Notes under the pieces: model-generated | The model's input: only the letters and a program-made list of their open reading frames with translations | Databases searched by the model: none | What the model was told of the DNA's origin: nothing | Made by a program: the position numbers and the translations under genes | Part shown: piece by piece, positions 703 through 41,554 of the stretch | Numbering within the stretch: the stretch's first letter is position 1 | How the letters are laid out: the number at the start of each line of letters is the position of its first letter | Assembly (NCBI GenBank): GCA_036172245.1 | Contig: JAYWIR010000167.1 | Span: forward strand, 1-48,214 | From: Raillietiella orientalis | Lineage: Eukaryota | Reading direction: 5' to 3' | DNA: 48,214 nucleotides

Positions 703-714
703 GTCTTCCCCTTT

Positions 715-4351: not shown

Positions 4352-4675
4352 GTGCAGAACTTGTGAGAACCCAAGGACTTCATGGTGGTAAAAAAAAGTG
4401 CCAATGTTATGGATGAGATTGTAGTGTGAATGTTTTGATAGAAAAATTTTAGAAAAATAAATTTACCCCACCCCTCGTGGGACTTGGGGAAAACTGCCGA
4501 GTCGGTGAACTTGCTTCGCGGCTCAAAGTCTTGTGCGCTCGAAAACATAATCAGTTAATTGTGCTCGTGTGTGCCCGGAGAGAAGAAGTTTTCGAGACGA
4601 AACTACAAAAGAAGAGGCAAGGAAATCGCGGCAAAACACCTGCAGTGGTTTCGTGCAGCAAGACCAGCTTCCAGG

Positions 4676-6460: not shown

Positions 6461-6473
6461 GTCTTCCCCTTCT

Positions 6474-9400: not shown

Positions 9401-9917
9401 GACGACCCTCTGGAGGAGTGACCTTCCGCCGTGCACCCAGGATAACCTCCTGAAGTTTTATCATGGAGGAATCCAGAGTGGGTCCCGATTGCAGCACTAC
9501 ACCAAAAGAAGGGAAGATCGAGACTGCACAGCATGTGGAGACATCGACACGAGACTTCACGTCTTGACGTGTCCCACATTGCTGCATGACTGGCTTATCC
9601 TGAAAAGGATCATCGGACTTACGAACAGATCCGTAATGGAGATTCTCGCCGGGATGTTTCAGGGGAATGGTAATGTTCCCTGTTACAATCCCATGGTGTG
9701 GACGACCATCGCCCTCTTCATCACCGCCATACTTGTGCGGTGGTGGAAAATGAGGAAAGCCAGAAGAGCCGCACCACCGATGGAGATCCTACAAGGGCTT
9801 CTGAAGAGGGAAATCGGCATTAGAAACTGTGGGAAAGTGCAAGCCAGGACGTACCGATTCATCCTGAAGAGGATAGAAGATGACGCCCAGGACCAAACAG
9901 CAGAAAACCCACCTTGA
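6474..9917 (+). pseudogene. A2 ORF2 (EN-RT-CCHC), heavily disrupted
   Basis: Fragments 6563-6817, 7380-7697, 7634-8368 (DMEKAFD, RQGDSLSP), 8381-8944 and 9219-9917 all align to A1/A3 ORF2; several stops and frameshifts and a ~60-nt EN deletion near 6957. Confidence 0.9.
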
Positions 9918-10055
9918 GTGCAGAACTTGTGAGAACCTGAGGACTTCATAGTGGTAAAAAAAAATGCTAATGGTATGGATGAGATATTAGGGTGAATGTT
10001 TTTATAGAAAAATTTTAGAAAAATAAATTTACCCCACCCCTCGTGGGACTTGTTG

Positions 10056-11418
10056 AAAACTGCCGCTTTGGAGATAGGGCGACTGCATGCAGCGTGCACT
10101 TGCTCTTCGCTACGCTACTTTTGCGGCTTTCGTAGGCTTTGCAGAGGGGCCTGCGCTGCACTGGGGCTGTCCGGAACTCGGAAGGGAGAACGAAACGGGG
10201 AAAGAAGTCTTCACACTGATCTTCGATCTTCCTGTTTTCCTACCTTTCCTTCCAGGGTGTTACGGGGATTTGCTGGTTCCTAACTCGGAGAGGTGCCTGC
10301 GAGTTCGGCAGCAAGGGATAGCACGGTACGCGTCAAACCCTTGCGCACCTTTTTGAATGGCTTCCTTGCCGTGACTTTGCCCTTTCGGGGAGTTGTGGGC
10401 GGGGTTGCTTTCTTTTCATCCGCAAATCGCTCGTTGTTTTTTCCGAGTTCTTGCGGAAGACGTTTTCTATTTGCCGCTGCTGCTTTTTATGCAGTGGTTT
10501 TTTGAACCCGAAGAATTTCCGCTGCGGATGTTTTTCTTCCATGTACCGGGCACTTTTTGATTTCGTGCCCGGAATTTTTGCAATAGCGGCATCTTGGAGA
10601 GGGCCGCTGTTTAATTCGGTGCCCATCCTTGTCGCACTGCTCGCACGCTTGAGTCTGGCCTATGAACCACAGGTGAACGACCGTGCCGTTCATCTGCAAC
10701 TGCCAAGGCACAACACGCCTGTTCGAGAGGGTGATCCACGCGGAAGCATGTCCGATGTTGACAGAGGAGAAATCCTTCAAAGGGTACGGCATCTTTCACA
10801 GGGCGTGGACGGTGGCGAACTTCGCCTGCACGCTTACAACATCGCGGTCGGAGATTTCCGGTTCGATGTCTCACAATTGAACGACAAAAGAGTCGTCCAT
10901 CGCGGTAGGTAGGACATCCTTTCCATTGATAGTCAACGGCGTAAGGAGAAGGCGCTGCACAATTGCTGCGTTCTTGCACCGAATCTTCGTATATTTCATC
11001 CTGCCAGCAGGCATTATGGCAAGGAGTTCTTCCTCGGGAACGCCGATCCGTACGAGCTCATCATTGAGCTCACGACCGATTCTGCAGTTAAGGGGCCCAC
11101 TGACCTTATGACGGAGTGCATTCATGTATCCTGATGACACATATGCCTGGAACTCCGCATCGCAGGGTCCTGGTCTTTGGGAGGTAACGGCGGCGTAACT
11201 CCTCACCGGGGGCAAGGAAACCATTACGGAGAATGCATCCACTTCAAGTTTAGCTGAAGTGCTTTTAGTGGCTTGCTCTTTCACACTATCCTGTGTACTA
11301 ACTTTGTTGCACTATGCTACTTGGCAGATTCCATAGCAACACACAAGTGCGAGCGAAAACGCGGGCACAAAGTTGCCCGATCGTTGGCGCGGATAGACGC
11401 AGATACACGTCTGCTCTG
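10056..11418 (-). mobile_element. LINE 5' fragment D- (5' UTR + degenerate B/E-type ORF1), cut in the ORF1 tail by the A1/A2 insertion
   Basis: EFQAYVSSGYMNALRHKVSG... and VVHLWFIGQTQACEQCDKDGHRIK..CRYCKNSGHEIKKC match B1 ORF1; 5' terminal motif CAGAGCAGACGTG at 11418-11406. Confidence 0.85.
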
Positions 11419-11420
11419 TA

Positions 11421-14400
11421 CAAACGCAGGAGAGCGTACGCATCTCCGGAGGGCGGCTGTGGTAACGGTGTGTAACATCGAGAAGTTATGATGCCGCCTA
11501 CCTGCTTCGGCCCGCCATCGAGGCCGCCGCCCGTTGAGTGCGGTTCGACGATCACGGTCGTGTCGGCCAGCTGAATCTCAGTTGGTCCGACTCGATCGAC
11601 ATGAACGTCATGAACGTTTGCTCCAAGAGCGGAGCGCACCTGACGAAAAGGAGGGCCAGGGAAGAATTTTTTTTTGCCCTCCATGGCGACTGGTTGAGCG
11701 AGGCAGGCGTGCGGAATGTTCGTCTGGTTTCAGGCGATTTTAACTTTCGTCTGAATCCGGATGGGTCGAATCCCGAGCGCGACCTGGTCAACGAGGTATT
11801 CGAGGCAGTGCACACTTGTAATTTCTTGGCCAGTGTACCAGGGCTGGAGGACAACATCGATCACGTGTTTCTCGACGAGCACCAGTGCACTCGTGTGGGC
11901 TGGCGCTGCAAGTTACCGTACGAGATCTCCGACCATCGACCAATCGTGAGTGAAATTCATCCGCGCGACAGGGGCCCACCCTCGTCAGCGTGGCGTTTGC
12001 CAGAGGACTGGCTGAAGCTCCCGGACGCTACGGAAGATCTCCGCACGTTCATACGGAGCTTTAGGATGCAGACACTCCACGATTGGGACCGCTTCAAAGG
12101 GTCGGTCCAGGAGTTCTGCGAACAGTTCGCTCTGCTCCGCCTACCTGCAAGATTTGGGTTCGGGGTACGTTACGAACGAGCCTATCTGCAGGCTCGCCGT
12201 TTCGCCAGGACCCCGCGACATCCGCATGCTGGCGGAATACAAAGCGGGAGCCGAGAGGCAAGCCTGGCAGTCTGGATCGGCCAGATTGCTGGACGATAAG
12301 GGCCAGGAGCATTCGGCACTCGCTCAGATCCGCGGTCCGCTGCGGCGTTTTTACTCTTCCCTGTACCCAAGAACGCCTCCGGAGCGGGGTTTCTCACGAC
12401 TCCTGCTTCCGGAATTCGCTCTTGCGATCGAAGAAGAGGAGAAAAAGTCCCTCGACGAGCCTTTCACGATGGGCAAGATCCTCTCGGCCATCGGAAAGGT
12501 CAAGATGCGCAAGGCTCCAGGAAAGGACGGCCTGTTAGCGGAGTTTTATTAAACTTTTGCGGCTGAGCTTACCCCTTCTGGTACAGCAACTCACCTTGCT
12601 GATACGCGAGACAGGTAACGTTCCCGCCTCGTTTCGTTCGGCAAAGGTGCGGCTTCTCCCTAAGGGAGGAGATCTGAGGAGCATGAACAAGTGGCGTCCT
12701 ATCATAATAGTGAATGCGGATGCCAGGTTGATAGCTAACGTTTGGGCTGAGCGCTTGGAAGGGGTTGCAAACACCTTCATCAGCCTGGAACAGACGTATG
12801 GTGTTCCGGGGCGAGGCATCAAGGCGAACATGTTCCACGTTTCCACCTGGCTAGAGCTCTAACACGAAAAAAGCTTGATGCACACCGGGAATTCCGGTGA
12901 GTCCGTCAGCCATGCGACGGATGGTCGGGTGGGGGAAGGAGGCCTTGCGGTCGCAATCGACTTGCGGAAAGCATTCGATTGCGTCGACCAGAATCTCCTA
13001 CTGGAGCTTTTAGAAGTCTTGGGCTTCCCGTCCTCATTATTAACCTATCTGCGCTCTAGCTAGCGCGATTCGCAAATCAATGTTACTATCAGCAAGCATA
13101 CTGTTCACGGCGTGCCGGTGCGAGGTATGATCAGGTAGGGAGACAACCTGAGCCCCTTGCTCTTCAGTACCTACTTTGAGTTGGTACTGAGAGCGTACAG
13201 GGAAACTCTGGCGCACCTGCCGCATGAATGCGCCGGAACGCCTGCGGTTTCAGTATATGCGGACGACCTTCTGCTACTGTTCCCTATGTCCACCCCTACT
13301 TCGGCGGTGAAGAAGTTCTTCGACCTGCTAAATCGAGGAACCGGGCTTACGGTGAACAGGGCGAAGTCGTCCGTGATGCCAGTTGGTGCGGCGTGGGCAA
13401 AGCAGCAGGACTGGGTCCGTTTGGGGATGCACACGTTGAGGTACCTCAAGTACCTTGGTGTGCCGTTGGGGGATTTATCCCCTGCGGAAGCGTGGTCCGG
13501 CCGCCTTCAAAAAGTAGAGACGGCAATCAACCCATTCCGTGGCGGCAGGTTTTTCCTGCCTGAACGGGCTGCGGTTTGGAAGATGTTCGCGGCTCCTCTC
13601 CTCCGTTTTCTGCTTTTTGTTTGCCCCCCAACAAAGAGCATCAGAAAGCGTACGAAGCACCTCCTCCGTATCGCCCTTTGGGGCAACGGGAGGGCCCGAG
13701 TGCGCTTAAAGGACTTGTGCGCTCCGCGTCGAGACGGTGGTCTCGGCCTCCTGACATTAGAGCGGCTGGAGCTGCAGCTGCAGTTCCGGATTTTGGCGCT
13801 TGTGTTGGAGTTGTGGTGCACCTGTTGGTGCGTCCCTGCACGTCTCCTTCAGCAAGCCACCGCCAAGACGGGAATTACATCGTTTCTTGCACTCCATCGA
13901 AGCCGCATTAACGGATGTGGGCTTCAGCTACGGAGGGTGGCTGCGCTGGCAAGGAAAAATCAAGGATGGATCACCTGTGTCCCCGCGAACGGTAGTGCCT
14001 AATTGCAGGTAACCGTTAGCACGTGGATACAGTTCGGCATGCTACCCTCATAACAGAAACGAAGGTTCCAGTTAGGGTGTTACAGAAGTTGCACACTTCG
14101 TGAGATCCTGGAGGATCCTAAGAAGAGAGCGTGGTCAGGAAGAACCCCCCTCTCTGCTGCGCTGGACTCCCTATTGAAACATAAGGACAGCGATGTTGCG
14201 GCTTAGTAAGAGCTTACAATGAAAATCTCCAAGAAGGAGAAGAAGCAGAGAGAGTGGAAGACGGGCTAGCTAACTGATGCTTTTACCCCGAGAACGCCTC
14301 CTAATGGACTTCTGCGCTGGCAAGCGCTGATGGATGTTCCGATTGAACATTTGAAGTGGCGCCCGGTTCTTATGAACACTTCCATCCTCCTCCTAAAACG

Positions 14401-15073
14401 GCAAGAGTCGGCATTCCTGTTTCAACACTGAGGACTCCCCTGCAACGCCCGTCGACATCGCTGGACCTAAGAAGCGGTGGATCCCAATTGTGTAAGGTGC
14501 GGGGAACGGGAGTCCCTCCCCCACCTCCCAGTGGATTGTGTTGCCCTTCGGCCCCTTTAGTTCCGCTTTGCCGCGGCCATCGTTATCCCTTGCGGCAACC
14601 CCAGGGACGCACTAAAAGCCTTCTTCGTTGCCGAAGCCCTCTGGCCAGCGTTCTGGATAGCAGCCTTGTGCTGCCTTCGTGGGATCGTCGCCCCATGGAG
14701 CACGGCGCCGACGGGAGAACCTAGCGATCAAAACGCCATCCAGTGCGCCTCTTAATTCTTAAGGAGGGCGTCGCAATGGCCCCACCTGGATGTTCACAAC
14801 AAACAAGAGCTTCCCAGCATTCTGAAAGGAATGATGCGGCCCCAGCAGCATCAGTGATCCCTTCCCGTTCCCTCCCACCATTTGTTTCTTCTTGTTTAGT
14901 TTTTAGTTTTTCCCCTTTCTTCTAGTGCCTTGGTGGAACGTACCGGTCTAGAAACCAATGAATTGGCAGGCTCCGTGGTTCTTTGCTTCTGGCTGGAGCA
15001 TTGCCACAGCCATAAATAATTTCTTTGTAAAGTTTATTTTTTTAATAAACGACCCGGAGAAATCCGGGTGAAA
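11421..15073 (+). mobile_element. 5'-truncated LINE D+ (C-like ORF2 pseudogene 11421-14857, 3' UTR, AATAAA+hairpin end)
   Basis: Starts inside EN (ISGGRLW*RC..VRFDDHGRVGQL, GDFN, SDH); RT motifs KAPGKDG, WRPI, DLRKAFD, YADD; many stops. Ends AATAAA 15044-15049 + ACCCGGA-GAAA-TCCGGGT. Confidence 0.9.
15033..15073 (+). terminator. 3'-terminal signal of D+: inverted TTTATT..AATAAA plus 7-bp GAAA-tetraloop hairpin
   Basis: ACCCGGA(15052-58) GAAA TCCGGGT(15063-69); same layout at the B1, C1 and F ends. Confidence 0.7.
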
Positions 15074-15074
15074 A

Positions 15075-16792
15075 TCGAACGCCTTGTGGAGATCGACCGC
15101 GACCGCCAAGGCACCTGGCGTTCCCTTCTGCCGTCAATGCCTGTTCTTCTTGCCTGCGGCAGTGACTTTCGCAGCAGCCTGGCTTTTCTGCGCCACAACT
15201 TCACGCAGCTGGATCCATGTACGCTCGAAAAGGATGTTCGCCTCCATGGATTGTATCGGAACCGCGTAGGTTTGTTCCGGGCTCACCGCAGATTCCGCGA
15301 TACTTCCTAACCGCGCGACCCACTGCTTGGAAAACAACTTGACGACCGAGTTTGCCAAGGTGATCGGACGCCAGTAGTTAAGTTGACGCAAGTCACCGCC
15401 TTCCGACAGGAGACGCAACTTCGCTGAGCGGGAGGAATCCGGGACATTCCCGGATTCACTCATCAGCGTCGCGAGTCTCAGCATCAAGGGAATGAGCTCC
15501 ACTTTAAAGCACTGATAAAACTCTGCAAGGAGCCCATCCTCGCCTGGCGCCTTTCGTCTCTTCAGCCTAGCGATGGCGGACGAAAAGTCATCCGCCGTGA
15601 AGGGCTCGTTGAGACGTTCGCATTCCTCCTCGCCGACAACACGAGCATCCTGAGAAAGGAGTATCTCAGATAGGATATGCTCCTTAGGGGATTCCGCGTA
15701 CAGCAAGAAGTAGTAGCGTCTCACAATGCGGCGTACTTCGGCTGAAGCCGAACATTCCTGGCCCTTGTCGTCCAACAGGCATGCTGCTGCGGACTGCCAG
15801 ACCTGGCGCTCGGCCCTCACCTTGTACCCTACGAGACGCCCGACATCCGCGCGTCTCGAAAACGTGCGGGCCTGCAGAAAGTCTCTACTGTTGGCCACAC
15901 CCTCTTCGAAACCGCGTGGAAGCCGGCGCAAGGGGAGTTGGCAACAGAACTCGCGGACAGATGTTTTGAGATCGTCCCAGTCCGCAAGTTCTTGAATGGC
16001 AAAGCCTTGGAGGTATCCACGTAGGTGGTCCGCAGCCTCCGGTTGGCTAAGCCAATCCGCCTGCATCCTCCAGCTTTGCAACGGAGGACCCCTGCCTGGC
16101 GGAAGGATCTCAAACTCCAACCTGTGGTGGTCAGAAAGCTCAGTCAACAATCTTCCTCTCCTACCCACAGGCGAATGCAGGTTTTCATCGAGGAAAACGT
16201 GATCGAGCGATCTTTTCATTCCAGGTTCGCTGACCATCAAGTTGGCGGCGTGCACGGACGCGCACATCTCGATGGGCAGCGCGCGCTCCCTCGGGCGGCT
16301 CCAATCGTCGGAGAGCAGGCGGACGTTGAAGTCCCCAGCGACGACGGGCGCCACTTGGAAGCCGGAGTTGTTGAGCCACTGGCTCTGCACCTCACCAAAG
16401 AAAGCTACTCTTTCTTCGAGGTAGCGAGAGCAACTCGGCGCGTAGACGTTCGTCACGACGGGATCGATGGACTCGGACCACTTGATGACAAGCTGGCCTA
16501 TCCGTCCGTTGTCATCGAAACGAACACTACGCACCGCTTCCGCTATTTTTCCTCTTACGAGGAACGCGACGCCGCACGTGTGTGCGCCGCGGCACCGCCA
16601 ATGTACCGTTCCGCCTGCGCGCTCCTCGATTTCGGCTGCCTGCTCGTCGGAGATTACGTGAACCTCCTGCAGCAGCGCGAGGTCGAAGGGGCGCAGGGCG
16701 TTGGCTACTAATCGCCTCTTCTCGTCGTTCTGCAGTCCGTTCACGTTCCTACACGTTACGGACAGACGACGAGAAAACGCGATTCCCCGCAT
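15075..16792 (-). pseudogene. B2 ORF2, EN plus RT N-terminal part, truncated
   Basis: 552-aa ORF nearly identical to the N-terminal half of B1 ORF2. Confidence 0.9.
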
Positions 16793-18738
16793 TACTGCTG
16801 GGAAGGTGGCAGCTTTTTGCTCGCTTTATCCGGCGAGCAGACGGCGAGCAGCACGACTGGCTGGAGGGGACGGTCGCCACCGTCCTCTGTCGTGCTGCAT
16901 GCATGTAATGCCTCCACGCCAGGCTGAACCCCGTCGGGTTTCGTGGAGACATCGCGTTGCTTCGCGGCGAGCGTTGCCTGGCTGCCTACTTTTGATCGGC
17001 GCGCACACGCTTTCGAACGAGTTGTCCTCGTCTCGGTGATCGGAACGGCATCCATTTCGGAGTCCGACCGGCGCATGTTCGATCGGATTTCGGCCTTCCG
17101 CGAAGCAGTGACAGGTTCTGCTGGATTGACAGCTGTCCTGTTTTCGTTTTCCGTCACCAGAGCATCGCGTTTGGTGACGGCTGCTTTCCCGGCGCGCGCG
17201 TTTACAGCGTGCTCACGCGCAGTTGCACGAGGGACCCTTGCTGAAGTCTTCTTTACTTCATTACGGTTCCTCACTTCGCGTGGCGCCGTAAATGGAGATT
17301 GTGCTCCATGGCCATCTTTGAAGCCATCCGCGTCTTTGGACGGGAGCACTTTCGATGGCTCCGACACGCTCGTCATGGACGCTGCCTTCGGAAGGGCTTT
17401 TAATCCCTTCGTAGGCATGGCATCCGCGCCAGTCGAGAGCTTGCTCTCCGACTGCGACGACGTGAGATTTTTCTCCGCTTTCGCGGTGTTGGATCGCGAC
17501 GCGGATTTTTTTTTGCCGACTTTCGAAGTCGAAACGGCACAACCCTTCTTACCCGATTTGGGCTTCTCAGCCACTGCAGGAGGTGAAGGAATGGATCTGA
17601 CGGTACTGGAAGTGTCCTTACCGCCGTTGTCCATTGGCGTCCCCGCCGGTTGCTCGAACTCCGAGAGAGCCGGGCGTGCTTGGGAAGGACAGCTATTGCG
17701 CCTAGGAGGACTTACCATTGCCCCGGATTCCCCGCACCCTTTCTTTTGCGGCTCCCCTGCCGCGAGAGGGGGTGCGCAGGGCTTTGCGTGCGAGGTTTCC
17801 TGCTGCTTTGGGGCGACATTCCGCCTCGCGTTTTTTCCGAATTTCTGCCGTGGGGTCTCCAGGTTTTTCGCAGATATTTTCTTTTTATCCGCGCTTTGTT
17901 TTCTAGGATGGAGCTCCGCGGCTGGCTTTTTTCGCAAAAGATCCGGTCAATTTTTCAATTGGTGCCCGGATAGTTTGCAATAACGGCATTTTCCAGAGGG
18001 GCATTTATCCAAACAATGCCCCTCCTTCCCGCATTGCTCGCACGTTTTTACTTTGCCCACGAACCACAGGTGAACGACCGTGTCTTTCATTTGTAGTTTC
18101 GTGGGCAGCAGACGGCGGTCCGGCATTGTAAGCCGGACTCCAGCGACTCCGCTATGTATGGACGGGAACTCCTTGAGGTTGCTACGCATCCTCCACAGCG
18201 CATGGACCGTGGCGAATTTCGCCAACGCGTTCCGAATATCAGTATCGGAGATTTCCGACTCGATGTCGAAAATCTCCACCACAAATGAGGCGTCCATGGC
18301 GGATGGGAAGACCTTCTGGCCACGGATCGACAACGGGGTGCGTAGCAAGCGTTGCTCAAGTGCAGCGTCTTTGCAACGCACCTTGAAATAGCCCATGTCT
18401 TTTACGGGCATAATGGCGAGAAGGTCCTCCTCCCGCACGCCAACACGGGTCAGTTCATCGTTGAACTGATTCCCTTCGCGCGCAGAAAGAAAACCACTCA
18501 TTTTATATCGGAGGGCAGGTCTATAGCCTTGGGCTACGTATGCCCGCAACTCCGACTCGTCGAGTGGTTTCCCTTTGACGGCTGCTGTGGCAGCAACGTC
18601 AGCAAAACTCCTCTCCATTGGCGAGAAAGACGAAGTGGAGGCGGCCGTCGGTTCCGCGATTGCAGATCCGGATGCTGTTTCTCCAACTTCAGTAGCTTCA
18701 AGTTGGGTCGACATCGTCGTCAAAATGTACGACGCCAA
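16792..18738 (-). pseudogene. B2 ORF1, with a nonsense mutation in the second zinc knuckle
   Basis: ORFs 17947-18738 and 16792-17937 together equal the 648-aa B1 ORF1. Confidence 0.88.
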
Positions 18739-18801
18739 GATGAAGCGGATGAAAGCACGGAGACGAGAGCGAAGAAAAACACGTCCGCACTCGATTGAAA
18801 T

Positions 18802-18844
18802 TTATCACCCGGTCACGCCGGGGCGTTTATTAATAATAATAAAC
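18802..18844 (-). terminator. 3'-terminal signal of B1: AATAAA + CCCGG/CCGGG hairpin
   Basis: Directly precedes the TSD; no poly(A) tail. Confidence 0.72.
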
Positions 18845-19114
18845 TGGTCAGGGACAATGTCCTTAACCAACAGAACGACAGAGAACATAGAAAAATTACC
18901 GGCACGCAGGCCTGGTAAACAAACCGCTCGCAGCGTGGGAGGAATGAGGGGAAACAAACAAAAATCAAAAACTGGAGGGAAGGGTAACGGGTTTTTGGTT
19001 AGGCTCCGTACTCACGGGGATTTAAACGATGAGCACCTAAACTGTTCCGGAGCCTATGGGGACGCGGGTGTAAAAAGAAAATACAAAAATAGTTTATGGA
19101 GGGTAGGGCAATGA

Positions 19115-22100
19115 TCACCGGGTTGGCCGCTGCTGAGCGTGTGTAAACCGGCGGTGTATTGCGGCGAGATTCCTCTTTGTCTCCTCTGTCAAATGAGGCC
19201 ATCTAGATGATGCTCCCATGTAGAAGGATGCTTTGCTTATTACCTCTTGGTGCTGTCCGTTGATTACCAACGCCTGGCGGACGGAAACTATCGCGCGTAT
19301 GCAACCGATGGTTGCAATCCTTGCGCTTAGTGAAAGCCCGCTCGGCGTGAAGAATCGTCGCAGCAAGTCTCTTGCGGTGTCCACGGGATGCAATAGTGCT
19401 GTTGCCAGCCTACGCCACAGTCCTTGTAGGACACCGCAGTCCAGAAGTAGGTGCGGAATCGACTCCGTCGATCCGCACCGAACGCAGTTCGCAGACGCAA
19501 GTCCCCCGGAGTCACGATGCCAACGCTCGTTGGACTGAAAACCCCAGTGAACGAAAAGCAGCACGGCTTGTTTCCAAGCAAGGGGGAGCAGCGAACTGTC
19601 CATACACTGTGCAGGGACTACAAGTTCTTCGGGGGTGACAGCAAGTTCTTTTGCCCACCGGAGGAGTCCCTTTGCAGTAACACGAGGAGTGGCGGCGTCC
19701 GCCAACTCACTTGTCTTCCAGGTGCCAAGGAGTTTGGTTTTTCCCGCTATCGTGCAGGAAACCTCCCACCTCGCCGGTTGGTAACTGTGGTTTCTTGCCC
19801 TGAGGGCAGACAGCGCGGCGGCAAGAGGCGTGGCAGCCAGGGTAGAAAACTTCACCTCGTCCTGCAGTACTTCTTCCAAGGATCGTGGAAAAAATTGGCG
19901 CAGGGGGCGAAGATCTTCAGGGCGTATTCCTTGGAACGCCGCCCAGGATTCAACAGACTCCTGCCGCCAAGCTTCAAAGTTCATTGGGCGGCAGGAGATC
20001 CACGAGTGTGCTTCCAGAAGTGCGGTCAACTGCCGCAATGGAAACCCGAAACCCCGCTTTCTGTATTGAGTGCCCGGCAGAAGCGAGAGAAATCCTCCGC
20101 TGCCGGCGCATCTCCGCAGGAGAATGCGAGCTGGCACACACAGGGGGGATGTCCATAGCTGGGCACACAGTGCCAGCAGTCGGAACTGCACCTGCAGTCC
20201 GATTCGCTCCATTGTCAGGATACCCAAACCAGCATCCCGACGCGGAGCTGACAAATCTTTAAGGCGGATCCTGGATCTCGCCGGACCCCAGAGAGCGTTC
20301 CTGAGCAGGCGCTCAGCCCGCTGTTTCGCCGCATAGGGGGGGTCCAAAACAAAAAACAGGGGACGGAGGAGGGGGGCCACAAAGGTGTTCCAAATAGTCG
20401 CCCGTTCCTGCAAGGTAAACTTGCCGTTAAAGAACGGGCTGATGGCCAACTCTGCTTTCTGAAGACAGTCCGCCCACGCTTCGGCTGCGCCGAAAGCGCC
20501 CAACGGAACGCCAAGGTACTTAAAGTACCCGCCCGTGGGGATCTCCAGGCGGATCCAGTCGGACTGTCCCTCCCACGACGTACCCACAGGAACGACCACT
20601 CTCTTCTCTCTGTTCACGCTCACGCCCGCTCCCCGACGAATCAGGTCGAAGAAATCCTCGACACTGGACGCCGGGGTGGACATGGGGAGCAGAAGAAGCA
20701 GGTCATCAGCGTAGGCAGCCACGGCAGGCGTTCCCGGGCAGGAGCTTGGCAAGTGAGACAGCGTCAGCCTGTATGCTCTTAGCACCAACTCAAAGAAGAT
20801 GCTGAAGAGCAACGGGCTTAAGCTGTCGCCCTGTCGGATGCCCCTACGAACGGGAATACCATACACGCGGCAGCCGCTAAAAGTGATGCAGGTTAGCGCG
20901 TGGCGCCAGCACGCGCGCAAATACAGCAGGAGTTGCGCCGGGAACCCAAGGCGTTCCATAAGCTCCAAGAGGAGCTTCTGGTTTACGCAGTCGAACGCCT
21001 TGTGAAGATCGACCGCGACCGCCAAGGCACCTGGCGTTCCCTCCTGCCGTCGGCGCCTGTTCTTTTTGCCTGCAGCAGTGACTTTCGCAGCAGCCTGGCT
21101 TTGCTGCGCCACAACTTCCTGCAGCTGCATCCATGTACGCGCGAAAAGGATGTTCGCCTCCTTGGATCGTCCCGGAACCGCGTAGGTTTGTTCCGGGCTC
21201 ACCACAGATTCCGCGATTCTTCCTAACCGCGCGACCCACAGCTTGGAAAACAACTTGACGTCCGAGTTCACCAAGGTGATCGGACGCCAGTTGTTAAGTT
21301 GGCGCAAGTCTCCGCCTTTCGGCAGGAGACGCACCTTCGCTGAGCGGAAGGAATCTGGGACATTCCCGGATTCACTCATCAGCGTCGCGAGTTTCAGCAT
21401 CAAGGGAATGAGCTCCACTGCAAAGCACTGATAAAACTCTGCAGGGAGCCCATCCTCGCCTGGCGCCTTTCGTCTCTTCAGCCCAGCGATGGCGGATGAA
21501 AATTCATCCGCCGTGAAGGGCTCGTCGAGACGTTCTCGTTCCTCCTCGTTGACAACACGAGCATCCTGAGATAGGAGTATCTCAGAAAGAATATCCTCCG
21601 TCGGGGATTCCGCGTAGAGCGAGGAGTAGTAGCGTCTCACAATGCGGCGTACTTCGGCTGGGGCCGAACATTCCTGGCCCTTGTCGTCCAACAGGCATGC
21701 TGCTCCGGACTGCCAGACCTGGCGCTCGGCCCTCGCCTTGTACTCTGCGAGACGCCCGACATTTGCGCTTCTCGAAAACGTGCGGGCCTGCAGAAAGTCT
21801 CTACTGTTGGCCACGCCCTCTCCGAAACCGCCTGGAAGCCGGTGCAAGGGGAATTGGCAGCAGAACTCGCGGACAGATCTTTTGACATCGTCCCAGTCCG
21901 CAAGTTCTTGAATGGCAAAGCCTCGGAGGTATCCACGTAGATGCTCCGCAGCCTCCGGTTGGCTAAGCCAATCTGCCTGCATCCTCCAGTTTTGCAACGG
22001 AGGCCCCCTGCCTGGCGGAAGGATCTCAAACTCCAACCTGTGGTGGTCAGAAAGCCTAGTCAACAATCTTCCTCTCCTACCCACACGCGAATGCAGGTTT

Positions 22101-22708
22101 TTATCGAGGAAAACGTGATCGAGCGATCTTTCCATTCCAGGTTCGCTGACCATCAAGTTGGCGGCGTGCACGGACGCGCACATCTCGATGGGCAGCGCGC
22201 GTTCCCTCGGGCGGCTCCAATCGTCGGAGAGCAGGCGGACGTTGAAGTCCCCAGCGACGAGGTGCGCCACTTGGAAACCGGAGTTGTTGAGCCAGTGGCT
22301 CTGCACCTCACCAAAGAAAGCTACTCTTTCTTCGAGGTAGCGAGAGCCACTCGGCGCGTAGACGTTCGTAACGACGAGGTCGATGGACTCGGACCACTTG
22401 ATGACAAGCTGGCCTATCCGTCCGTCGTCATCGAAACGAACACCACGCACCGCTTCCGCCATTCTTCCTCTTATGAGGAACGCGACGCCGCACGTGTGTG
22501 CGCCGCCGCACCGCCAATGTAGCGTTCCGCCTGCGTGCTCCTCGATTTCGGCCGCCTGCTCGTCGGAGATTACGTGAATCTCCTGCAGGAGCGCGAGGTC
22601 GAAGGGGCGCAGGGCGTTGGCTACTAATCGCCTCTTCTCGTCGTTCTGTAGTCCGTTCACGTTCCAACACGTTACGGACAGACAACGAGAAGACGCGATT
22701 CCCCGCAT
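19115..22708 (-). CDS. B1 ORF2: APE endonuclease + reverse transcriptase + C-terminal CCHC finger (1197 aa)
   Basis: WNVNGL, LQEIH, VYAP, GDFN, LDH, SDH; KAPGEDG, WRPITLVNSD, DLHKAFD, GIRQGDSLSP, YADD, KYLG; CVRC...HLLLDC; no stops. Confidence 0.96.
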   Translation of the reverse strand: MRGIASSRCLSVTCWNVNGLQNDEKRRLVANALRPFDLALLQEIHVISDEQAAEIEEHAGGTLHWRCGGAHTCGVAFLIRGRMAEAVRGVRFDDDGRIGQLVIKWSESIDLVVTNVYAPSGSRYLEERVAFFGEVQSHWLNNSGFQVAHLVAGDFNVRLLSDDWSRPRERALPIEMCASVHAANLMVSEPGMERSLDHVFLDKNLHSRVGRRGRLLTRLSDHHRLEFEILPPGRGPPLQNWRMQADWLSQPEAAEHLRGYLRGFAIQELADWDDVKRSVREFCCQFPLHRLPGGFGEGVANSRDFLQARTFSRSANVGRLAEYKARAERQVWQSGAACLLDDKGQECSAPAEVRRIVRRYYSSLYAESPTEDILSEILLSQDARVVNEEERERLDEPFTADEFSSAIAGLKRRKAPGEDGLPAEFYQCFAVELIPLMLKLATLMSESGNVPDSFRSAKVRLLPKGGDLRQLNNWRPITLVNSDVKLFSKLWVARLGRIAESVVSPEQTYAVPGRSKEANILFARTWMQLQEVVAQQSQAAAKVTAAGKKNRRRRQEGTPGALAVAVDLHKAFDCVNQKLLLELMERLGFPAQLLLYLRACWRHALTCITFSGCRVYGIPVRRGIRQGDSLSPLLFSIFFELVLRAYRLTLSHLPSSCPGTPAVAAYADDLLLLLPMSTPASSVEDFFDLIRRGAGVSVNREKRVVVPVGTSWEGQSDWIRLEIPTGGYFKYLGVPLGAFGAAEAWADCLQKAELAISPFFNGKFTLQERATIWNTFVAPLLRPLFFVLDPPYAAKQRAERLLRNALWGPARSRIRLKDLSAPRRDAGLGILTMERIGLQVQFRLLALCAQLWTSPLCVPARILLRRCAGSGGFLSLLPGTQYRKRGFGFPLRQLTALLEAHSWISCRPMNFEAWRQESVESWAAFQGIRPEDLRPLRQFFPRSLEEVLQDEVKFSTLAATPLAAALSALRARNHSYQPARWEVSCTIAGKTKLLGTWKTSELADAATPRVTAKGLLRWAKELAVTPEELVVPAQCMDSSLLPLAWKQAVLLFVHWGFQSNERWHRDSGGLASANCVRCGSTESIPHLLLDCGVLQGLWRRLATALLHPVDTARDLLRRFFTPSGLSLSARIATIGCIRAIVSVRQALVINGQHQEVISKASFYMGASSRWPHLTEETKRNLAAIHRRFTHAQQRPTR

Positions 22709-24654
22709 TACTGCTGGGAAGGTGGCGGCTTTTTACTCGCTTTATCCGGCGAGCAGACGGCGAGCAGCACGACTGGCTGGAGGGGACGGTCGCCACCGTC
22801 TGTTGTCGTGCTGCATGCATGTACTGCCTCCACGCCAGGCTTAACCCCGTCGGGTTTCGTGGAGACTTCGCGTGGCTTCGCGGCGAGCGTTGCCTGGCTG
22901 CCTACTATTAATCGGTGCGCACACGCTTTCGAACGAGTTGTCCTCGTCTCGGTGATCGGAACGGCATCCATTTCGGAGTCCGACCGGCGCATGTTCGATC
23001 GAGTTTCGGCCTTCCGCGAAGTAGTGACAGGTTCTGCCGGATTGACAGCTGTCCTGTTGTCTTTTTCCGTCTCCAGAGCATCGCTTTTGGTGACGGCTGC
23101 TTTCCCGGCGCGCGCGTTTTCAGCGTGCTCACGCGCAGTTGCGCGAGGGACCTTTGCTGAAGTCTTCTTTACTTCATTACGGTTCCTCACTTCGCGTGGC
23201 GCCGTAAATGGAGATTGTGCTCCTTGGCCATCTTTGAAGCCGTCCGCGTCTTTGGACGGGAGCACTTTCGATGGCTCCGACACGCTCGTCATGGACGCTG
23301 CCTTCGGAAGGGCTTTTAATCCCTTCGTTGGCATGGCATCCGCGCCAGTCGAGAGCTTGCTCTCCGACTGCGACGGCGTGAGAGTTTTCTCCGCTTTCCC
23401 GGTGTTGGGTCGCGACGCGGATTTTTTTTTGCCGACTTTCGAAGTCGACACGGCACAACTTTTCTTACCCGATTTGGGCTTCTCAGCCACTGCAGGAGGT
23501 GTAGGAATGGATCTGACGGTACTGGAAGTGTCCTTACCGCCGTTGTCCATTGACGTCCCCGCCGGTTGCTCGAACTCCGAAAGAGCCGGGTGTGCTTGGG
23601 AAGGACAGCTATTGCGCCTAGGGGGACTTAGCATTTCCCCGGATTCCCCGCACCCTTTCTTTTGCGGCTCCCCTGCCGCGAGAAAGGACGCGCAGGCCTT
23701 CGCGTGCGAGGTTTCCTGCTGCTTTGGGGCGACATTCCGCCTCGCGTTTTTTCGGAATTTCTGCCGTGGGGTCTCCAGGTTTTTCGCAGATTTTTTCTTT
23801 TTATCCGCGCTTTGTTTTCTAAGATGGAGCTCCGCGGCTGCCTTTTTTCGCAAAAGATCCGGGCAATTTTTCAATTGGTGCCCGGATAGTTTGCAATAAC
23901 GGCATTTTCCAGAGGGGCATTTATCCAAACAATGCCCCTCCTTCCCGCATTGCTCGCACGTTTTTACTTTGCCCACGAACCACAGGTGAACGACCGTGTC
24001 TTTCACCTGTAGTTTGGTGGGCAGCAGACGGCGGTCCGGCATTGTAAGCCGGACTCCAGCGACTCCGCTGTGTATGGACGGGAAGTCCTTGAAGTTGCTA
24101 CGCACCCTCCACAGCGCATGGACCGTGGCGAATTTCGCCAACGCGTTCCGAATATCAGTATCGGAGACTTCCGACTCGATGTCGAAAATCTCCGCCACAA
24201 ATGAGTCGTCCATGGCGGACGGGAAGACCTTCTGGCCACGGATCGACAACGGGGTGCGCAGCAAGCGTTGCACAAGTGCAGCGTCTTTGCAACGCACCTT
24301 GAAATAGCCCATGTCTTTTACGGGCATACTGGCGAGAAGGTCCTCCTCCCGCACGCCAACACGGGTCAGTTCATCGTTGAACTGATTCCCGTCGCGCGCA
24401 GAAAGAAACCCACTCACCTTATATCGGAGAGCAGGTCTATAGCCTTCGGCTACGTATGCCCGCAACTCCGACTCGTCGAGTGGCTTCCCTTTGACGGCTG
24501 CTGTGGCAGCAAGGTCAGCAAAACTCCTCTCCATTGGCGAGAATGACGAAGTGGAGGCGGCCGTCGGTTCCGCGATTGCAGATCCATATGCTGTTCCTGC
24601 AACTTCAGTAGCTTCAAGTTGGGTCGACATCGTCGTCAAAATGTACGACGCCAA
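22708..24654 (-). CDS. B1 ORF1: gag-like nucleic-acid-binding protein with two CCHC zinc knuckles and a long basic low-complexity tail
   Basis: CEQCGKEGHCLDKC and CRYCKLSGHQLKNC; uninterrupted frame. The annotated start 24654 is TTG; the first ATG is nine codons in (MSTQL...). Confidence 0.9.
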   Translation of the reverse strand: MASYILTTMSTQLEATEVAGTAYGSAIAEPTAASTSSFSPMERSFADLAATAAVKGKPLDESELRAYVAEGYRPALRYKVSGFLSARDGNQFNDELTRVGVREEDLLASMPVKDMGYFKVRCKDAALVQRLLRTPLSIRGQKVFPSAMDDSFVAEIFDIESEVSDTDIRNALAKFATVHALWRVRSNFKDFPSIHSGVAGVRLTMPDRRLLPTKLQVKDTVVHLWFVGKVKTCEQCGKEGHCLDKCPSGKCRYCKLSGHQLKNCPDLLRKKAAAELHLRKQSADKKKKSAKNLETPRQKFRKNARRNVAPKQQETSHAKACASFLAAGEPQKKGCGESGEMLSPPRRNSCPSQAHPALSEFEQPAGTSMDNGGKDTSSTVRSIPTPPAVAEKPKSGKKSCAVSTSKVGKKKSASRPNTGKAEKTLTPSQSESKLSTGADAMPTKGLKALPKAASMTSVSEPSKVLPSKDADGFKDGQGAQSPFTAPREVRNRNEVKKTSAKVPRATAREHAENARAGKAAVTKSDALETEKDNRTAVNPAEPVTTSRKAETRSNMRRSDSEMDAVPITETRTTRSKACAHRLIVGSQATLAAKPREVSTKPDGVKPGVEAVHACSTTTDGGDRPLQPVVLLAVCSPDKASKKPPPSQQ

Positions 24655-24695
24655 GATGAAGCGGATGAAAGCACGGAGACGAGAGCGAAGAAAAA

Positions 24696-24708
24696 CACGT
24701 CCGCACTC
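24696..24708 (-). promoter_or_regulatory. Conserved 5'-terminal motif (GAGWGC)RGACGTG, putative DPE-like internal Pol II promoter element
   Basis: Present at the 5' ends of B1, B2 (18780-18792), C2 (27132-27144), D- (11406-11418) and E (43024-43036), while the rest of the UTRs diverge. Confidence 0.55.
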
Positions 24709-27144
24709 GATTGAAATCTCCCGCTATCAGGTGAGCCTTTCGCACATTGGTATCCGCAATCCAGTCGCGCTTCAGGGTTTCCAGCAGCCTGGTGCGGTCG
24801 CGGTAAACCTGTTTGCCGCTGGGGCCATACACGTTTGTGACGATAAGGTCGATCGAGTCGGACCAGCTGAGAATCCGCTGACCGATCCGACCGTCGTCAT
24901 CAAACCGCACGCCATTTACGGCAGCGTCGATGGCCGGCTTCACGATGAACGCGACCTCGCAGGTGTTGCGGAGGCCGCATCGCCAATACAGCCGACCCCC
25001 CGCGATCGTCTCGATTTCCTGGGCGTCTGCCGCGGTGATCACGTGGATCTCCTGGAGCAGCGCCAGGTCGAGCTCACGCAGATTGTCGGCTGTATCTCGC
25101 CTGTTGCCGTCGTCGCGCAGCCCGTTGACGTTCCAACAGGCCGCGCGAATCCGACGGCGACTGGCGAGCCCAGGTGTTAGTCCAGGAAAAACGGCGATGC
25201 GGCGTCCGCCACCTGCTGGGGTGGGACGCTAGGTGGAGGGGGAGGGGGGACAGGTACTGAAGGCACCTTTTCCTCCTCCTCCATCGGTGCCGGCGCTTCG
25301 GCCGGATCACCCGCAGGTGGAGTCGCGCCTACCTGTTCGCCTTCCTCCATGGGTTCGGGCTGCTCAGGTTTCGCGACTGCAGGGAGGACTTCACCCCCCT
25401 GCTCTCCCTCCTCCATGGGGATGGCCGACTCGACGGCTTCCGAGCGTGGGTATTCCCCCTCCGGGATTCCCACGCTGCCGCTTCCTTCCGGTTTCTCCTC
25501 CTCGCTGGTGGAGGGGAGGCGCCTCCTGGGTTTCTGGGACTTGCGTCCCGACTTCCTGGTGGGTGCCTCCTAGGAGGAGGATCCGCTTCCGGCCCCCAAG
25601 TCGCACTCACCAGCGGGGGCCTTCTTCGTCGGAGCCGACCTGCGTACGCCCTTGCGCGACGGGGTTTCGCGCTCGGCGAGCGTTGCTGCGAGCACCTCCG
25701 CCGCTTTCTCGAAGGCCGCGTCTTCGCCAGCGGCGACCGTTGCCGCGGGCTGCTCCGCGACCTTATCGAGCGCGGTCACATCGTTGACGGCGAACGTTGC
25801 CGAGGGCTCCTCCGCGACTTTATCGAGCGCGGAGTCATGGCTGTCGGCGCGCGAGTCTCGCGTCTCACCCTCTAAACGTAGATTGGGCTCGTCCTCGCGA
25901 GTATTCATCGCGTCCGCATCAGCTGTTCCGCGAACATTGCCGCGGGCGACTCGGCAGGAACGGCTAAGCTTTCCAGTGCCACAGAGCATTCGCGCAGTTT
26001 ATTTTTTGAAAGCGGCGCGGATTTTTTCTTGTTGCCGGCAGTTTTCTTCTCCGAATTTTCTTCTATCATCACTTTCTTCTTTTTCTCTTTTCTGGCCTGA
26101 ACCAGCTGCCAAGCCTCCTCCATTCCCGCGTCCACGGGAGCTATATGCTCCGACGTCTGTACGGGAGGAAGGGAGGCTGGCAGTTGGGAACAGCCATTTT
26201 CGCGAGCTGGTCTTTCTACCAGCTTTCCACGTTTTCCCTGCGCCTTTTTGGCGGCAGGGGGCACCGGGGTGGGGCGCTTGGGGCACACGCGCCGAACAAG
26301 ACTTTTTTCGCCGCATAGGTGGCACACAATGTTCGGGCACCTTTTTCGTAGATGCCCTACTGCATTTCAGTAGCCACAAAATTGGCGTTTCCCCACGTAC
26401 CAGAGGTCCACCGCTTCTTGGCAGACCTTCAGATAGTGGGGAAGCGCACCACGCTCTTTTACGGTGATACGCGCGGCAGCTTGATCTCCAAAAAGGCTAT
26501 TGTAGCCTTGGAAAATCGTGGACTTCGGCCACAACGCGTGCACTTCTCCGTGCTTTTGTTGCTGTTCTCGAACCGCTGACCTTGTCATGCGACTGGAGAT
26601 CCCAGTGAGATGGACCACCACCGAGCGGTCCATCGTTATCGGCAAGATCTTCCGACCATCAACGATCAGCGGGTCGGTGATCAGGTGTCGGGCCAAGGTG
26701 ATATCCTTGCATACCACCTCGACCCGCTGCCCGGCGCTGAGGACGCAGAGGCCGTCGAGATCTTTTTCAAAAATATTAACGTTCTGCAGCGCCTTCGTAA
26801 AGGCGCGTGCAGTTCGCCCATCGAAAAGGTTGCCTACCTTGTAGACTAGCGAGGGTTTATACACCGCTTTCTTGTAGGCTTCCATCTCGGCCATGGCTTC
26901 CACGCTAGGCGCGGCCACCATGGCGCTCCATGACCTCGGCGTCGCCAGGGACGATTCCGGGGCGGATGTCCCTGATCCAGTAGGCTGTGGGTACGAACAA
27001 GCCTCCATCACGCCTACTTCCATCGCGGTGTCCTCTGGCAACGCTGCCATCAGACACCGACGATGTGCACGCACAAATTACTCAAGAAGAAAAAACACTC
27101 GCTTTGCCACGCAGACGGAGCGCAGGAAAAGCACGTCCGCTCTC
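24709..27144 (-). mobile_element. LINE copy C2 5' part (5' UTR, degenerate ORF1 ~27050-25177, EN N-terminus), interrupted at the EN GDFN motif by B1/B2
   Basis: EN fragment matches C1 30495-30963 up to AGDFN; knuckles CGY*NAVGHLRKRC and CHLCGEKSLVRRVC; 5' end GAGAGCGGACGTG. Confidence 0.88.
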
Positions 27145-27162
27145 CACAACGGGGATTCGGCG

Positions 27163-30200: not shown

Positions 30201-31790
30201 GGTATTCCTTCGCACCTGAAAGTCGAGTCCAGTCCCCCGGCAGACGCCAATCCCTGGATGGCGGTCCCTTGTCACGAGGCCGCATTTCGAAAATTAACCG
30301 GGAATGGTCCGACAACGTCGACGCAACCCTCCCCCGTTTGCCGACCCGTGAACACAGGTCAGCGTCGAGGAAGACGTGGTCGATGCTGCGGACCATTCCC
30401 CTCTCACCCGCGAACAATTTGCGCGCACGCATGGCGGCGCACAACTCGTTCATCGCGTTCTTTTGTGTTTCTGGCTCACCTGTTAGCAGACGGAGATTGA
30501 AATCTCCCGCTATCAAGTGAGCCTTCCGCACGTTCGTGTCCGCCAGCCAGTCGCGCTTCAGGGAATCCATCAGCCTGGTACGGTCGCTGTATCCCTGTTT
30601 ACCGCTGGGGGCGTACACATTCGTGACGATCAATTCGATCGAGTCGGACCAGCTGAGAATCAGCTGACCGACCCGACCGTCGTCATCGAAGCGCACGCCC
30701 TTCACGGCCGCGTCGATGGCCGGCTTCACGAAGAACGCGACCCCGCAGGTGTTTCGGAGGCCGCACCGCCAATACAGCCGAGCCTCAGCGATCGTCTCGA
30801 TCTCCTGGGCGTCTGCCGCGGTGATCACGTGGATCTCCTGCAGCAGGGCCAGGTCGAGCTCACGCAGGGTGTCGGCCGTATCTCGCCTGTTACCGTCGTC
30901 GCGCAGCCCGTTGACGTTCCAACAGGCGGCGCGAATCCGACGGCGACTGGCGAGCCCAGGTGTTATTCCTGGGAAGATGGCGATGCGGCGTCCCCCACCT
31001 GTTGGGGCGGGACGCTAGGTGGAGGAGGAGGGTCAGGCGATGCGTGCACCTGGTCCCCCTCCTCCATGGGTAACGGCGCGTCGAGCGGCTCACCCTTAGA
31101 TGATGTCGCGCCTACCTGTTGGCCCTCCTCCATGGGGGCGGGCTGTTCAGGCTCGGCGACTGCAGGGAGGACTTCGCCCCCCTGCTCACCCTCCAACATG
31201 GGGTGGCCGGCTCGACGGCTTCCGAGCGTGGGAGTTCCCCCTCCTGGATTCCCACGCTACCGCTTCCTTCCGGTTTCTCCTCCTCGCTGGTGGAGGGGAG
31301 GCGCCTCCTGGGCTTCTGGGACTTGCGTTCCGACTTCCTGGGGGGTGCCTCCGAGGAGGAGGATGCACTTCCTGCCCCCAGGTCCGACTCACCTGTGGGG
31401 GCCTTTTTCGCGGGAGCCGGCCTTCGCACGGCCTTGCGTGAGGGGTTCTCACGCTCCGCCAGCGTGGCCGCGAGCTCCTCCGCCGCCTGAGCGAACGCGA
31501 CGTCCTCGGCTTCGACCGTCGCTATTTCGCGCGGCTCACCCTCTGTGTAAACAGAGGGTTCGCCGACTGAAATTCCGCACTGTTGTCCCTGTTAGGTGGA
31601 CCACAATGGAGTGGTCCACCGTGTGTGGGAGTTAATTCCTGCCCTCAAATTGTACGGGCGTGCAGAGCATCTTGTGGGTAAGACCTGAATCGTTGCAGAT
31701 GAGCTTCGCCAACTGCCCTTCGCTCCGTAGTGACAGGCAAAGAATTCCATGCTCGACAATGCCCATCTTTTTGATGGCATTGCTGAAGAA
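27163..31790 (-). mobile_element. LINE copy C1: 5'-truncated, internally deleted ORF1, degenerate ORF2 (30963-27368), intact 3' terminus
   Basis: ORF2 fragments 29950-30828, 29498-29902, 28826-29488 (YADD), 27767-28771, 27530-27754 (CAMC..HLIVDC). ORF1 tail 30963-~31546 matches C2; 31560-31790 (AIKKMGIVEHGILCL...VDHSIVVHLTG) matches the C2 ORF1 N-terminal domain. 3' AATAAA-CGC-CCCGGG-CGTA-CCCGGG-TGATAA. Confidence 0.88.
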
Positions 31791-36034: not shown

Positions 36035-36094
36035 GCCGAGAAGTCCACGGTGGAAAACCTGCAGTCGTCCCGAGCAGCCGGAACAGCTGCCAGG

Positions 36095-37887: not shown

Positions 37888-37900
37888 GTCTTCCCCTTTT

Positions 37901-40900: not shown

Positions 40901-41418
40901 GCACGACGCTCTGGAGGAGTGATTTTCCGCCGGGAACCCAGGATGACCTCCTGATGTTTTATTACGGAGGAATCCAGAGTGGGTCAAGATTGCAGCACTT
41001 CACAGGAAGACGGGAAGATCGAGACTGCACAGCATGTGGAGACATCGACACGAGACTTCACGTCTTGACGTGTCCCACATTGCTGCATGACTGGCTGATC
41101 CTGAAAAGGATCATAGGACTTACCAACAAGTCTGTTATGGAGATCCTCGCCGGGATGTTTCAGGGGGATGGTAATGTTCCCTGTTACAATCCCATGGTGA
41201 GGACGACCATAGCCCTCTTCATCACCGTCATACTTGTGCGGTGGTGGAAAATGAGGAAAGCCAGGAGAGCCGCACCACCAATGGAGATCCTACAAGGGCT
41301 CTTGAAGAGGGAAATCGGCATCAGGAACTGCGGGAAGATCCACGCCTGGACGTACCAATTCATCCTGAAGAGAATCCAGGACGACGCCCGGGACCATCCA
41401 GCTGGAATACCCGTCTGA
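37901..41418 (+). pseudogene. A3 ORF2 (EN-RT-CCHC), disrupted
   Basis: Fragments 37901-38524, 38521-38811, 39388-40086 (DMEKAFD, YADV) and 40117-41418 are colinear with A1. Confidence 0.9.
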
Positions 41419-41554
41419 AAAGCAGAACTCCAGTGCAACCCAAGGACCCCCAAGTGCAAAATGTTTGTATTGAGTGAATGAGAGTGCGAATGTAAATATT
41501 GTATTTTTATAGAAAAATAAACTTACCATATCCCTTGTGGGACTTAGGGAAACT

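What the first reader, a model, noticed from the sequence alone, without database searches (positions are those of the whole stretch)
18793..24717. Two B copies stacked at one nucleotide, separated by a TSD taken from the EN active-site codons of C2
Seen (minus strand): C2 ...GGAG-ATTTCAATC-[B1]-ATTTCAATC-[B2]. The 9-mer belongs to the GDFN codons of the C-family endonuclease (uninterrupted in C1 at ~30495-30503). B1 and B2 start at the same base but differ by scattered substitutions. Inference: the same site was nicked twice, implying sequence-specific re-targeting of a conserved motif in a sister family. TSD-mediated tandem duplication is the alternative.
Basis: partly seen in the sequence, partly recalled or inferred. 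Interest (0 to 1): 0.75.

Follow-up and report, generated by a model that had tools for sequence, protein, structure and literature searches.

The report
LINE re-hitting a sister LINE's codons
A jumping gene (an L1-like LINE) almost always lands at one exact base inside the nuclease gene of a related jumping gene, and the two stacked copies here are two separate landings at that spot, not a duplication.

Summary
Confirmed, and it holds across the genome. B1 (24708-18802) and B2 (18792-15075) are L1-like LINEs, each preceded by ATTTCAATC from the GDFN codons of sister family C. All 82 of 82 B 5' ends examined follow this 9-mer: 62 in C, 2 in a family C' that is 35% diverged, 18 behind another B. 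About half of the main C sites are filled, 73 of 148. B1 and B2 differ by 4.9% and are not each other's nearest relatives (ranks 49 and 28 of 66). B lineages do not track their host flanks. Duplication, composite amplification and gene conversion are therefore disfavoured. B1, which is intact and younger, most likely entered the 5' duplication of B2, as R1 does in rDNA. Stacking by double insertion is a known mechanism, and Tx1 elements that target other transposons are known. My seven literature searches found no LINE fixed on a sister LINE's catalytic codons, nor the web of such families seen here. Endonuclease specificity is inferred, not assayed. The scan reported this targeting before on other pieces of this genome.

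The parts
24718..27144 (-). C2, host LINE, 5' part: 5' end at 27144, decayed ORF1, endonuclease codons up to the GDFN motif
   Evidence: 86.6% identical to C1 over 1,035 bp
24709..24717 (-). ATTTCAATC, first copy of the target-site duplication (DFN codons of the C endonuclease)
18802..24708 (-). B1, full-length 5,907-bp L1-like LINE; the younger copy, both ORFs open
   Evidence: ORF2 open in only 3 of 59 copies with a 3' end, B1 among them; 13 private changes against 46 in B2
22708..24630 (-). B1 ORF1, 640 aa, two CCHC knuckles; its stop overlaps the ORF2 start (TAATG)
   Evidence: no Pfam hit
19115..22708 (-). B1 ORF2, 1,197 aa: APE-type endonuclease, reverse transcriptase, C-terminal CCHC
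   Evidence: Pfam PF03372 and PF00078; RT best match L1 ORF2p E 4e-37, against R2 5e-16; endonuclease model matches L1-EN at Z 25.3, rmsd 2.3, 213 aligned
18802..18831 (-). B 3' terminus: AATAAA then a GC hairpin, no poly(A) tail; the same kind of end is shared by the sister families
   Evidence: z -2.6 for the last 108 nt
18793..18801 (-). ATTTCAATC, second copy, between B1 and B2
15075..18792 (-). B2, older decayed copy (stops in both ORFs), cut at B position 3718
11400..15074 (+). Family D LINE inserted antisense into the RT DLHKAFD codons of B2
30495..30503 (-). Empty target site in C1 (single ATTTCAATC)

Best explanation
B is a site-specific, APE-endonuclease LINE of the L1 group whose target is the GDFN coding stretch of sister LINE families C and C'. 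Shown: fixed insertion point, sense orientation, 9-bp duplication, independent events. Inferred from the established TPRT mechanism: the B endonuclease nicks the bottom strand opposite GGAG^ATTTCAATC, reverse transcription starts at B's hairpin 3' end, and the top strand is cut 9 nt downstream. Each insertion leaves a 9-mer at both ends that can be hit again. Here B2 came first and B1 later entered its upstream copy. More speculative: the lack of cleanly truncated copies suggests that the B transcript carries the 9-mer at its 5' end and anneals to the cut target.
For: 82 of 82 5' ends follow the 9-mer; 58 of 59 3' ends are followed by it at <=1 mismatch, the last at 3. In a separate 3'-end sample 22 of 22 B copies carry it. 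B copies are closer to each other (median 4.5%) than their C flanks are (11%); residual Mantel r 0.012, p 0.31, n 48. The nearest 70 bp of flank track the far flank (r 0.65), not B (r 0.007). Two hosts belong to C', 35% diverged. In 10 of 10 tandem pairs neither partner is the other's nearest copy. Alleles shared by >=10 copies are under purifying selection (pN/pS 0.46 in ORF1, 0.21 in ORF2), while singletons are neutral (1.04, 0.96). A B relative (84% identical) forms a double 5'-truncated insertion of unequal lengths in which the upstream, middle and downstream copies all carry the variant ACTTCAAT(C) (L202). Tandem frequency, 0.28-0.34 per filled site, is near a simple re-hit model, 0.38.
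Against: No biochemistry. Which side is re-hit is not fixed: upstream copy younger in 15 of 26 pairs and downstream in 11 (7 and 3 individually significant; sign test p 0.56). The short-window test for this locus alone was not significant, 6 against 8, p 0.28. The control of upstream against downstream C flank is only weakly concordant (r 0.15, p 0.007), so some flank shuffling exists. One of 48 loci pairs, L152/L153, is a segmental duplicate. For B proper, a true duplication cannot be told from an element-borne terminal 9-mer, because no copy shows the same variant on both sides. All data come from one assembly.
Confidence: 0.88

Rival explanations
1. B1-B2 arose by tandem duplication or unequal exchange across the 9-bp repeats of a single insertion.
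For: Head-to-tail arrangement with one 9-mer between. Age estimates within pairs correlate weakly (rho 0.33, p 0.095). B1-B2 pN/pS of 0.72-0.79 is not far from neutral.
Against: The partners rank 49 and 28 of 66; B1 has a sibling at 1.7% elsewhere; private changes are 13 against 46; none of 10 pairs is a nearest-neighbour pair.
Confidence: 0.03
2. One ancestral B-in-C insertion was amplified as a composite unit or by segmental duplication, so the shared site reflects descent.
For: Raw Mantel r 0.29, p 0.001, before removing per-copy age; one duplicate pair L152/L153.
Against: Residual r 0.012; flanks are more than twice as diverged as the inserts; B1 and its sibling L121 sit in different C subfamilies; two hosts are family C'.
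Confidence: 0.02
3. Homing by recombination: a nick at empty C sites is repaired from a filled C copy, which copies B whole.
For: B is nearly always full length with exact junctions. No cleanly truncated B was found among 6 hits of two searches that cover about 56% of possible junction letters. 5' and 3' end counts are 142 and 145.
Against: No co-conversion even in the nearest 70 bp; insertion into C'; purifying selection on shared alleles; truncated double insertion by a B relative; tandems are not an expected product.
Confidence: 0.04
4. Targeting is mostly regional (chromatin or clustering tether) plus a short loose motif, and C merely supplies the motif inside the LINE nests.
For: B re-hits junctions that keep only one C flank, on either side. 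The endonuclease model shows no beta-hairpin before the SLDH strand, the loop that affects target choice in L1-EN (PMC1950540, passages). Scattered 10-mers on large contigs are unused, which fits a regional filter as well as a longer site.
Against: Single-base precision in 82 of 82; B's own GDFN site, which differs at 3 of 9 bases, is not among the breakpoints seen. This rival refines the best explanation more than it replaces it.
Confidence: 0.3

Closest known systems
R1 tandem arrays in Drosophila 28S rDNA (PMC2718515, passages read; 10.1101/158386, passages read)
   Same: APE-type site-specific LINE; copies stacked at the normal site, separated by the TSD; explained as new insertions into the TSD at the 5' end of an existing copy.
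   Different: The R1 target is a host rRNA gene, the TSD is 14 bp and truncated copies occur. B targets another LINE's ORF2, has a 9-bp TSD, is almost always full length, and appears to re-hit either end.
Tx1-clade elements that target transposons: Tx1L in Tx1D; Tx1-Mar in Mariner-N4; Tx1-8_Crp and Tx1-4_AMi in LTR retrotransposons; Tx1-9_AMi in Harbinger (PMC4494074, passages and section 15 read)
   Same: L1-group, APE endonuclease, fixed or preferred site inside another mobile element.
   Different: The targets listed there are DNA transposons or LTR elements. Here the target is the catalytic-motif codons of a sister LINE (EN about 52% identical in protein), and sister families hit each other.
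Zepp / ZeppL L1 LINEs of green algae (PMC8226300, PMC3446292, passages read)
   Same: L1-type LINE nests built by insertion into existing LINE copies.
   Different: Zepp is described as targeting its own copies, mostly 5'-truncated. B avoids its own homologous site, hits a sister at one base and is full length. A centromeric position was not tested here.

Membership tests
L1 group non-LTR retrotransposon | ORF1 plus ORF2 with N-terminal APE endonuclease, RT and C-terminal CCHC | tested here: met
L1 group non-LTR retrotransposon | RT closer to L1 than to R2-type RTs | tested here: met
   L1 ORF2p 131 bits against R2 62 bits among solved structures; few clades are represented there
L1 group non-LTR retrotransposon | 3' poly(A) tail (typical of mammalian L1; recalled) | tested here: not met
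   ends in AATAAA plus hairpin, directly followed by the 9-mer
Target-specific APE LINE (functional class) | More than 20% of flanks in one target type (criterion in PMC4494074) | tested here: met
   64 of 64 non-tandem 5' flanks
Target-specific APE LINE (functional class) | The endonuclease cleaves the target in vitro | not testable with these tools
   needs purified protein
Tx1 clade | RT phylogeny groups with Tx1L/Keno | tested here: inconclusive
   No Tx1 reference was available. The 8 window RTs form their own clade (100/99) with no close database relative; best proteins 22-31% identical
R1 clade | RT phylogeny with R1 and an rDNA or telomeric target | tested here: not met
   The target is a LINE ORF2; RT placement against R1 was not run
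Zepp-like L1 | Inserts into its own family | tested here: not met
   B enters C/C' or the C-derived 9-mer; no breakpoint at B's own GDFN
Zepp-like L1 | One cluster per chromosome, at the centromere | not testable with these tools
   491 contigs, no CENH3 data

The most novel reading that the evidence does not exclude
One L1-like lineage has radiated into a web of families that each recognise a different coding site in their relatives (EN GDFN, RT KAFD, PxGFG and others) while sparing their own copy of the motif through synonymous codons. Specificity and target codons then chase each other, as B-like lineages on ATTTCAATC, ACTTCAATC and ATTTCAACA sites hint: an arms race among sibling LINEs that follows homing-endonuclease logic and builds the nests.
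Probability: 0.3. Interest if true: 0.85.

Novelty: new variant of a known kind. Interest (0 to 1): 0.62.

Why it matters
It adds a target type, a sister LINE's catalytic codons, to site-specific retrotransposons and gives a simple rule by which LINE nests build themselves. A set of closely related endonucleases (43-57% identical to B's) with different single-base targets is a natural series for the long-open question of how APE-type endonucleases acquire sequence specificity. B1 is one of only 3 of 59 copies with an open ORF2, so the test is direct. A full-length, precise, site-specific inserter is also of interest as a gene-insertion tool. The stacking itself is ordinary double insertion.

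Tried and rejected
B1-B2 dN/dS as the deciding test: 0.72 and 0.79, uninformative. A fixed polarity of re-insertion: not supported (4 of 30 junctions were dropped as too short, and L032 was merged with L031 through an identical 170-bp key although it is another locus). Synonymous escape by the GGC variant two bases before the site: 2 of 43 filled against 73 of 148 (Fisher p 1e-8), but all 13 sampled GGC sites belong to the separate family C' and 10 of them to a burst younger than most B copies, so escape is not shown. My first reading of the C target as sense 'YAESP' codons was wrong; two mapped cases are antisense PxGFG. Search for 5'-truncated B with a clean duplication: 0 of 6 hits. Attempts to reach the 5' junctions of B relatives L096 and L113 failed because other elements interrupt them; L202 was fetched on the wrong side of its intended site. 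L205 gave only a weak C-terminal ORF2 match, so the family with unrelated flanks remains uncharacterised. Cnl1 as a self-targeting analogue (recalled): the passages read did not state it. The CENH3/ZeppL preprint and the centromere atlas passages gave no fixed-site LINE-in-LINE case. TRAS1-EN and R1Bm-EN were not among the 50 listed structural matches.

Full report
Observation. The window is a whole 48-kb contig of a 210-Mb eukaryotic assembly and consists of nested LINEs. On the minus strand it reads C2-ATTTCAATC-B1-ATTTCAATC-B2. The 9-mer occurs three times, the third uninterrupted in the GDFN codons of C1. B2 is cut at 15075 by an antisense LINE, so the closing repeat is not on this contig.

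What B is. B1 is 5,907 bp, with a 640-aa ORF1 and a 1,197-aa ORF2 carrying an APE endonuclease and RT. The RT matches L1 ORF2p far better than R2 among solved structures. The endonuclease model (pLDDT 86) aligns with L1-EN at Z 25.3, rmsd 2.3, 213 residues; cellular AP endonucleases lie within 1-2 Z units, so this shows the fold and not the clade. The GDFN, DH and SDH catalytic columns are present. Database relatives are only 22-31% identical. The eight RTs of the window form one supported clade. B ends in AATAAA plus a hairpin, without poly(A).

Census. A pattern inside B's 5' end, blind to flanks, has 142 hits. Of the 100 listed I fetched the first 80 and added B1 and B2; the rest were not examined. 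All 82 follow the 9-mer (72 exact, 10 with one mismatch): 64 in endonuclease codons and 18 behind another B. Of the 59 with a 3' end in reach, 58 are followed by it at one mismatch or less and one at three. Two of the 64 hosts belong to C', about 35% diverged from C. A few of the 80 (L122, L176) are a more diverged B subfamily. In a separate sample of 30 3' ends, 22 are B and all carry the 9-mer; 4 are B relatives (73-87%) at the homologous GDFN site; 4 share only the hairpin and have unrelated flanks. Exact counts for the main C site are 73 filled and 75 empty. The 10-mer GATTTCAATC occurs 847 times, many of them scattered along large contigs, so more than the 9-mer, or a regional filter, is needed.

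Independence. B copies differ by a median 4.5% and their C flanks by 11%. After removing per-copy age the two distance matrices are uncorrelated (r 0.012, p 0.31, n 48; raw r 0.29), with one duplicate pair. The nearest 70 bp of flank follow the far flank and not B, which argues against gene conversion. The control of upstream against downstream flank is positive but weak, r 0.15. Shared alleles show purifying selection and singletons do not, the pattern of active source lineages followed by decay.

The tandem. B1 and B2 differ by 4.9% and rank 49 and 28 of 66 for each other. B1 carries 13 private changes and B2 46 over the same 3,718 columns, and none of 10 tandem pairs is a nearest-neighbour pair. 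B1 is one of 3 of 59 copies with an open ORF2. So B2 came first and B1 entered the upstream 9-mer. Tandems are common: 23 of 91 exact 3' junctions (my count from the list). This is near a rough re-hit model (0.38 expected; 0.28-0.34 seen). Across 26 pairs the younger copy is upstream in 15 and downstream in 11, with no significant bias.

Is the 9-mer a true duplication? For B proper it cannot be told from an element-borne 9-mer, since every variant seen is one-sided. A B relative at L202 decides it for that lineage: two truncated copies of unequal length, with the variant ACTTCAAT(C) upstream, between and downstream, and 13 bp repeated at the 5' joins. For B itself no cleanly truncated copy was found, and 5' and 3' ends are equally many. 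A 5' leader that anneals to the cut target would explain this; PMC2718515 (passages) proposes such annealing for some R1 elements. This step is inference.

Wider picture. In the fetched loci other families with the same hairpin end also land at fixed points: antisense at RT KAFD (9 ends, in B and in more distant hosts; a 12-bp repeat in L170), antisense near ORF2 residue 269 of C (8), and antisense at the end of B ORF1 (4). C ends are followed by a GCCGAA-like motif (4; two map to antisense PxGFG). These come from loci chosen around B, so they are not a census. No breakpoint falls at B's own GDFN site, which differs from the target at 3 of 9 bases. Apparent escape by a GGC codon is confounded by family and age.

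Known systems. Double insertion with a TSD between copies is described for R1 and many other elements (PMC2718515 and 10.1101/158386, passages). Tx1-clade elements target DNA transposons and LTR elements (PMC4494074, passages and section 15); PMC4640811 (passages) lists transposons among known targets. Zepp nests into itself (PMC8226300 and PMC3446292, passages). PMC1950540 and PMC3747384 were read as passages. Seven searches returned no LINE fixed on a sister LINE's coding motif. Repbase, Kojima and Fujiwara 2004, the original Zepp paper and all supplements were not seen, and any of them could hold a precedent. B works like R1 and Tx1L. Membership of the Tx1 clade is untested for lack of references.

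Earlier notes of this scan report the same GDFN targeting, mostly from two or three copies, on other pieces of this genome. They are not independent support; the counts above are my own.

Verdict. The stacking is a known mechanism. The target and the web of mutual targeting are a new variant of a known kind. Interest 0.62.

Noticed in passing
window 15074/15075; L126, L131, L144, L153, L170, L176, L111, L115: Family D and relatives insert antisense at the RT D(L)HKAFD codons (B position 3718); L170 shows a 12-bp repeat.
   Followed up: partly
window 27145-27162: C1 and C2 are themselves head to tail with an 18-bp spacer that begins like other C target sites: a probable second double insertion in the same window.
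   Followed up: partly
L049, L099, L104, L114, L119, L159, L171, L175: Another family inserts antisense at one point of C about 330 bp downstream of the B site (8 ends).
   Followed up: partly
L158, L166, L196, L199: A family inserts antisense at B position 1866, near the end of ORF1, which is not a catalytic motif.
   Followed up: partly
L201:6272-6281 and L202: B relatives (80-84% identical) use the variant ACTTCAATC and also form tandems.
   Followed up: partly
L091, L093, L094, L102: Elements with B's exact terminal hairpin but another body and unrelated flanks; possibly a non-specific relative or a non-autonomous passenger.
   Followed up: partly
window 22706-22710: The ORF1 stop overlaps the ORF2 start (TAATG), which suggests coupled termination-reinitiation (recalled for SART1; not checked).
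   Followed up: no
B1 endonuclease residues about 180-197: The model has no beta-hairpin before the SLDH strand, and the GDFN-to-DH spacing is shorter than in L1-EN; sister families share the short form.
   Followed up: partly
L206-L218: Family C' keeps GATTTCAATCTCCG letter for letter with C despite about 35% flank divergence, and had a recent burst.
   Followed up: partly
window 43036 (-) against 43042-45460 (+): Another LINE 5' end sits antisense at the start of the RT region of a B-like element.
   Followed up: no
window 1-10065 and 36054-41552 (+): Three copies of a more distant LINE family (about 30% identical in RT to B) belong to the same clade.
   Followed up: no
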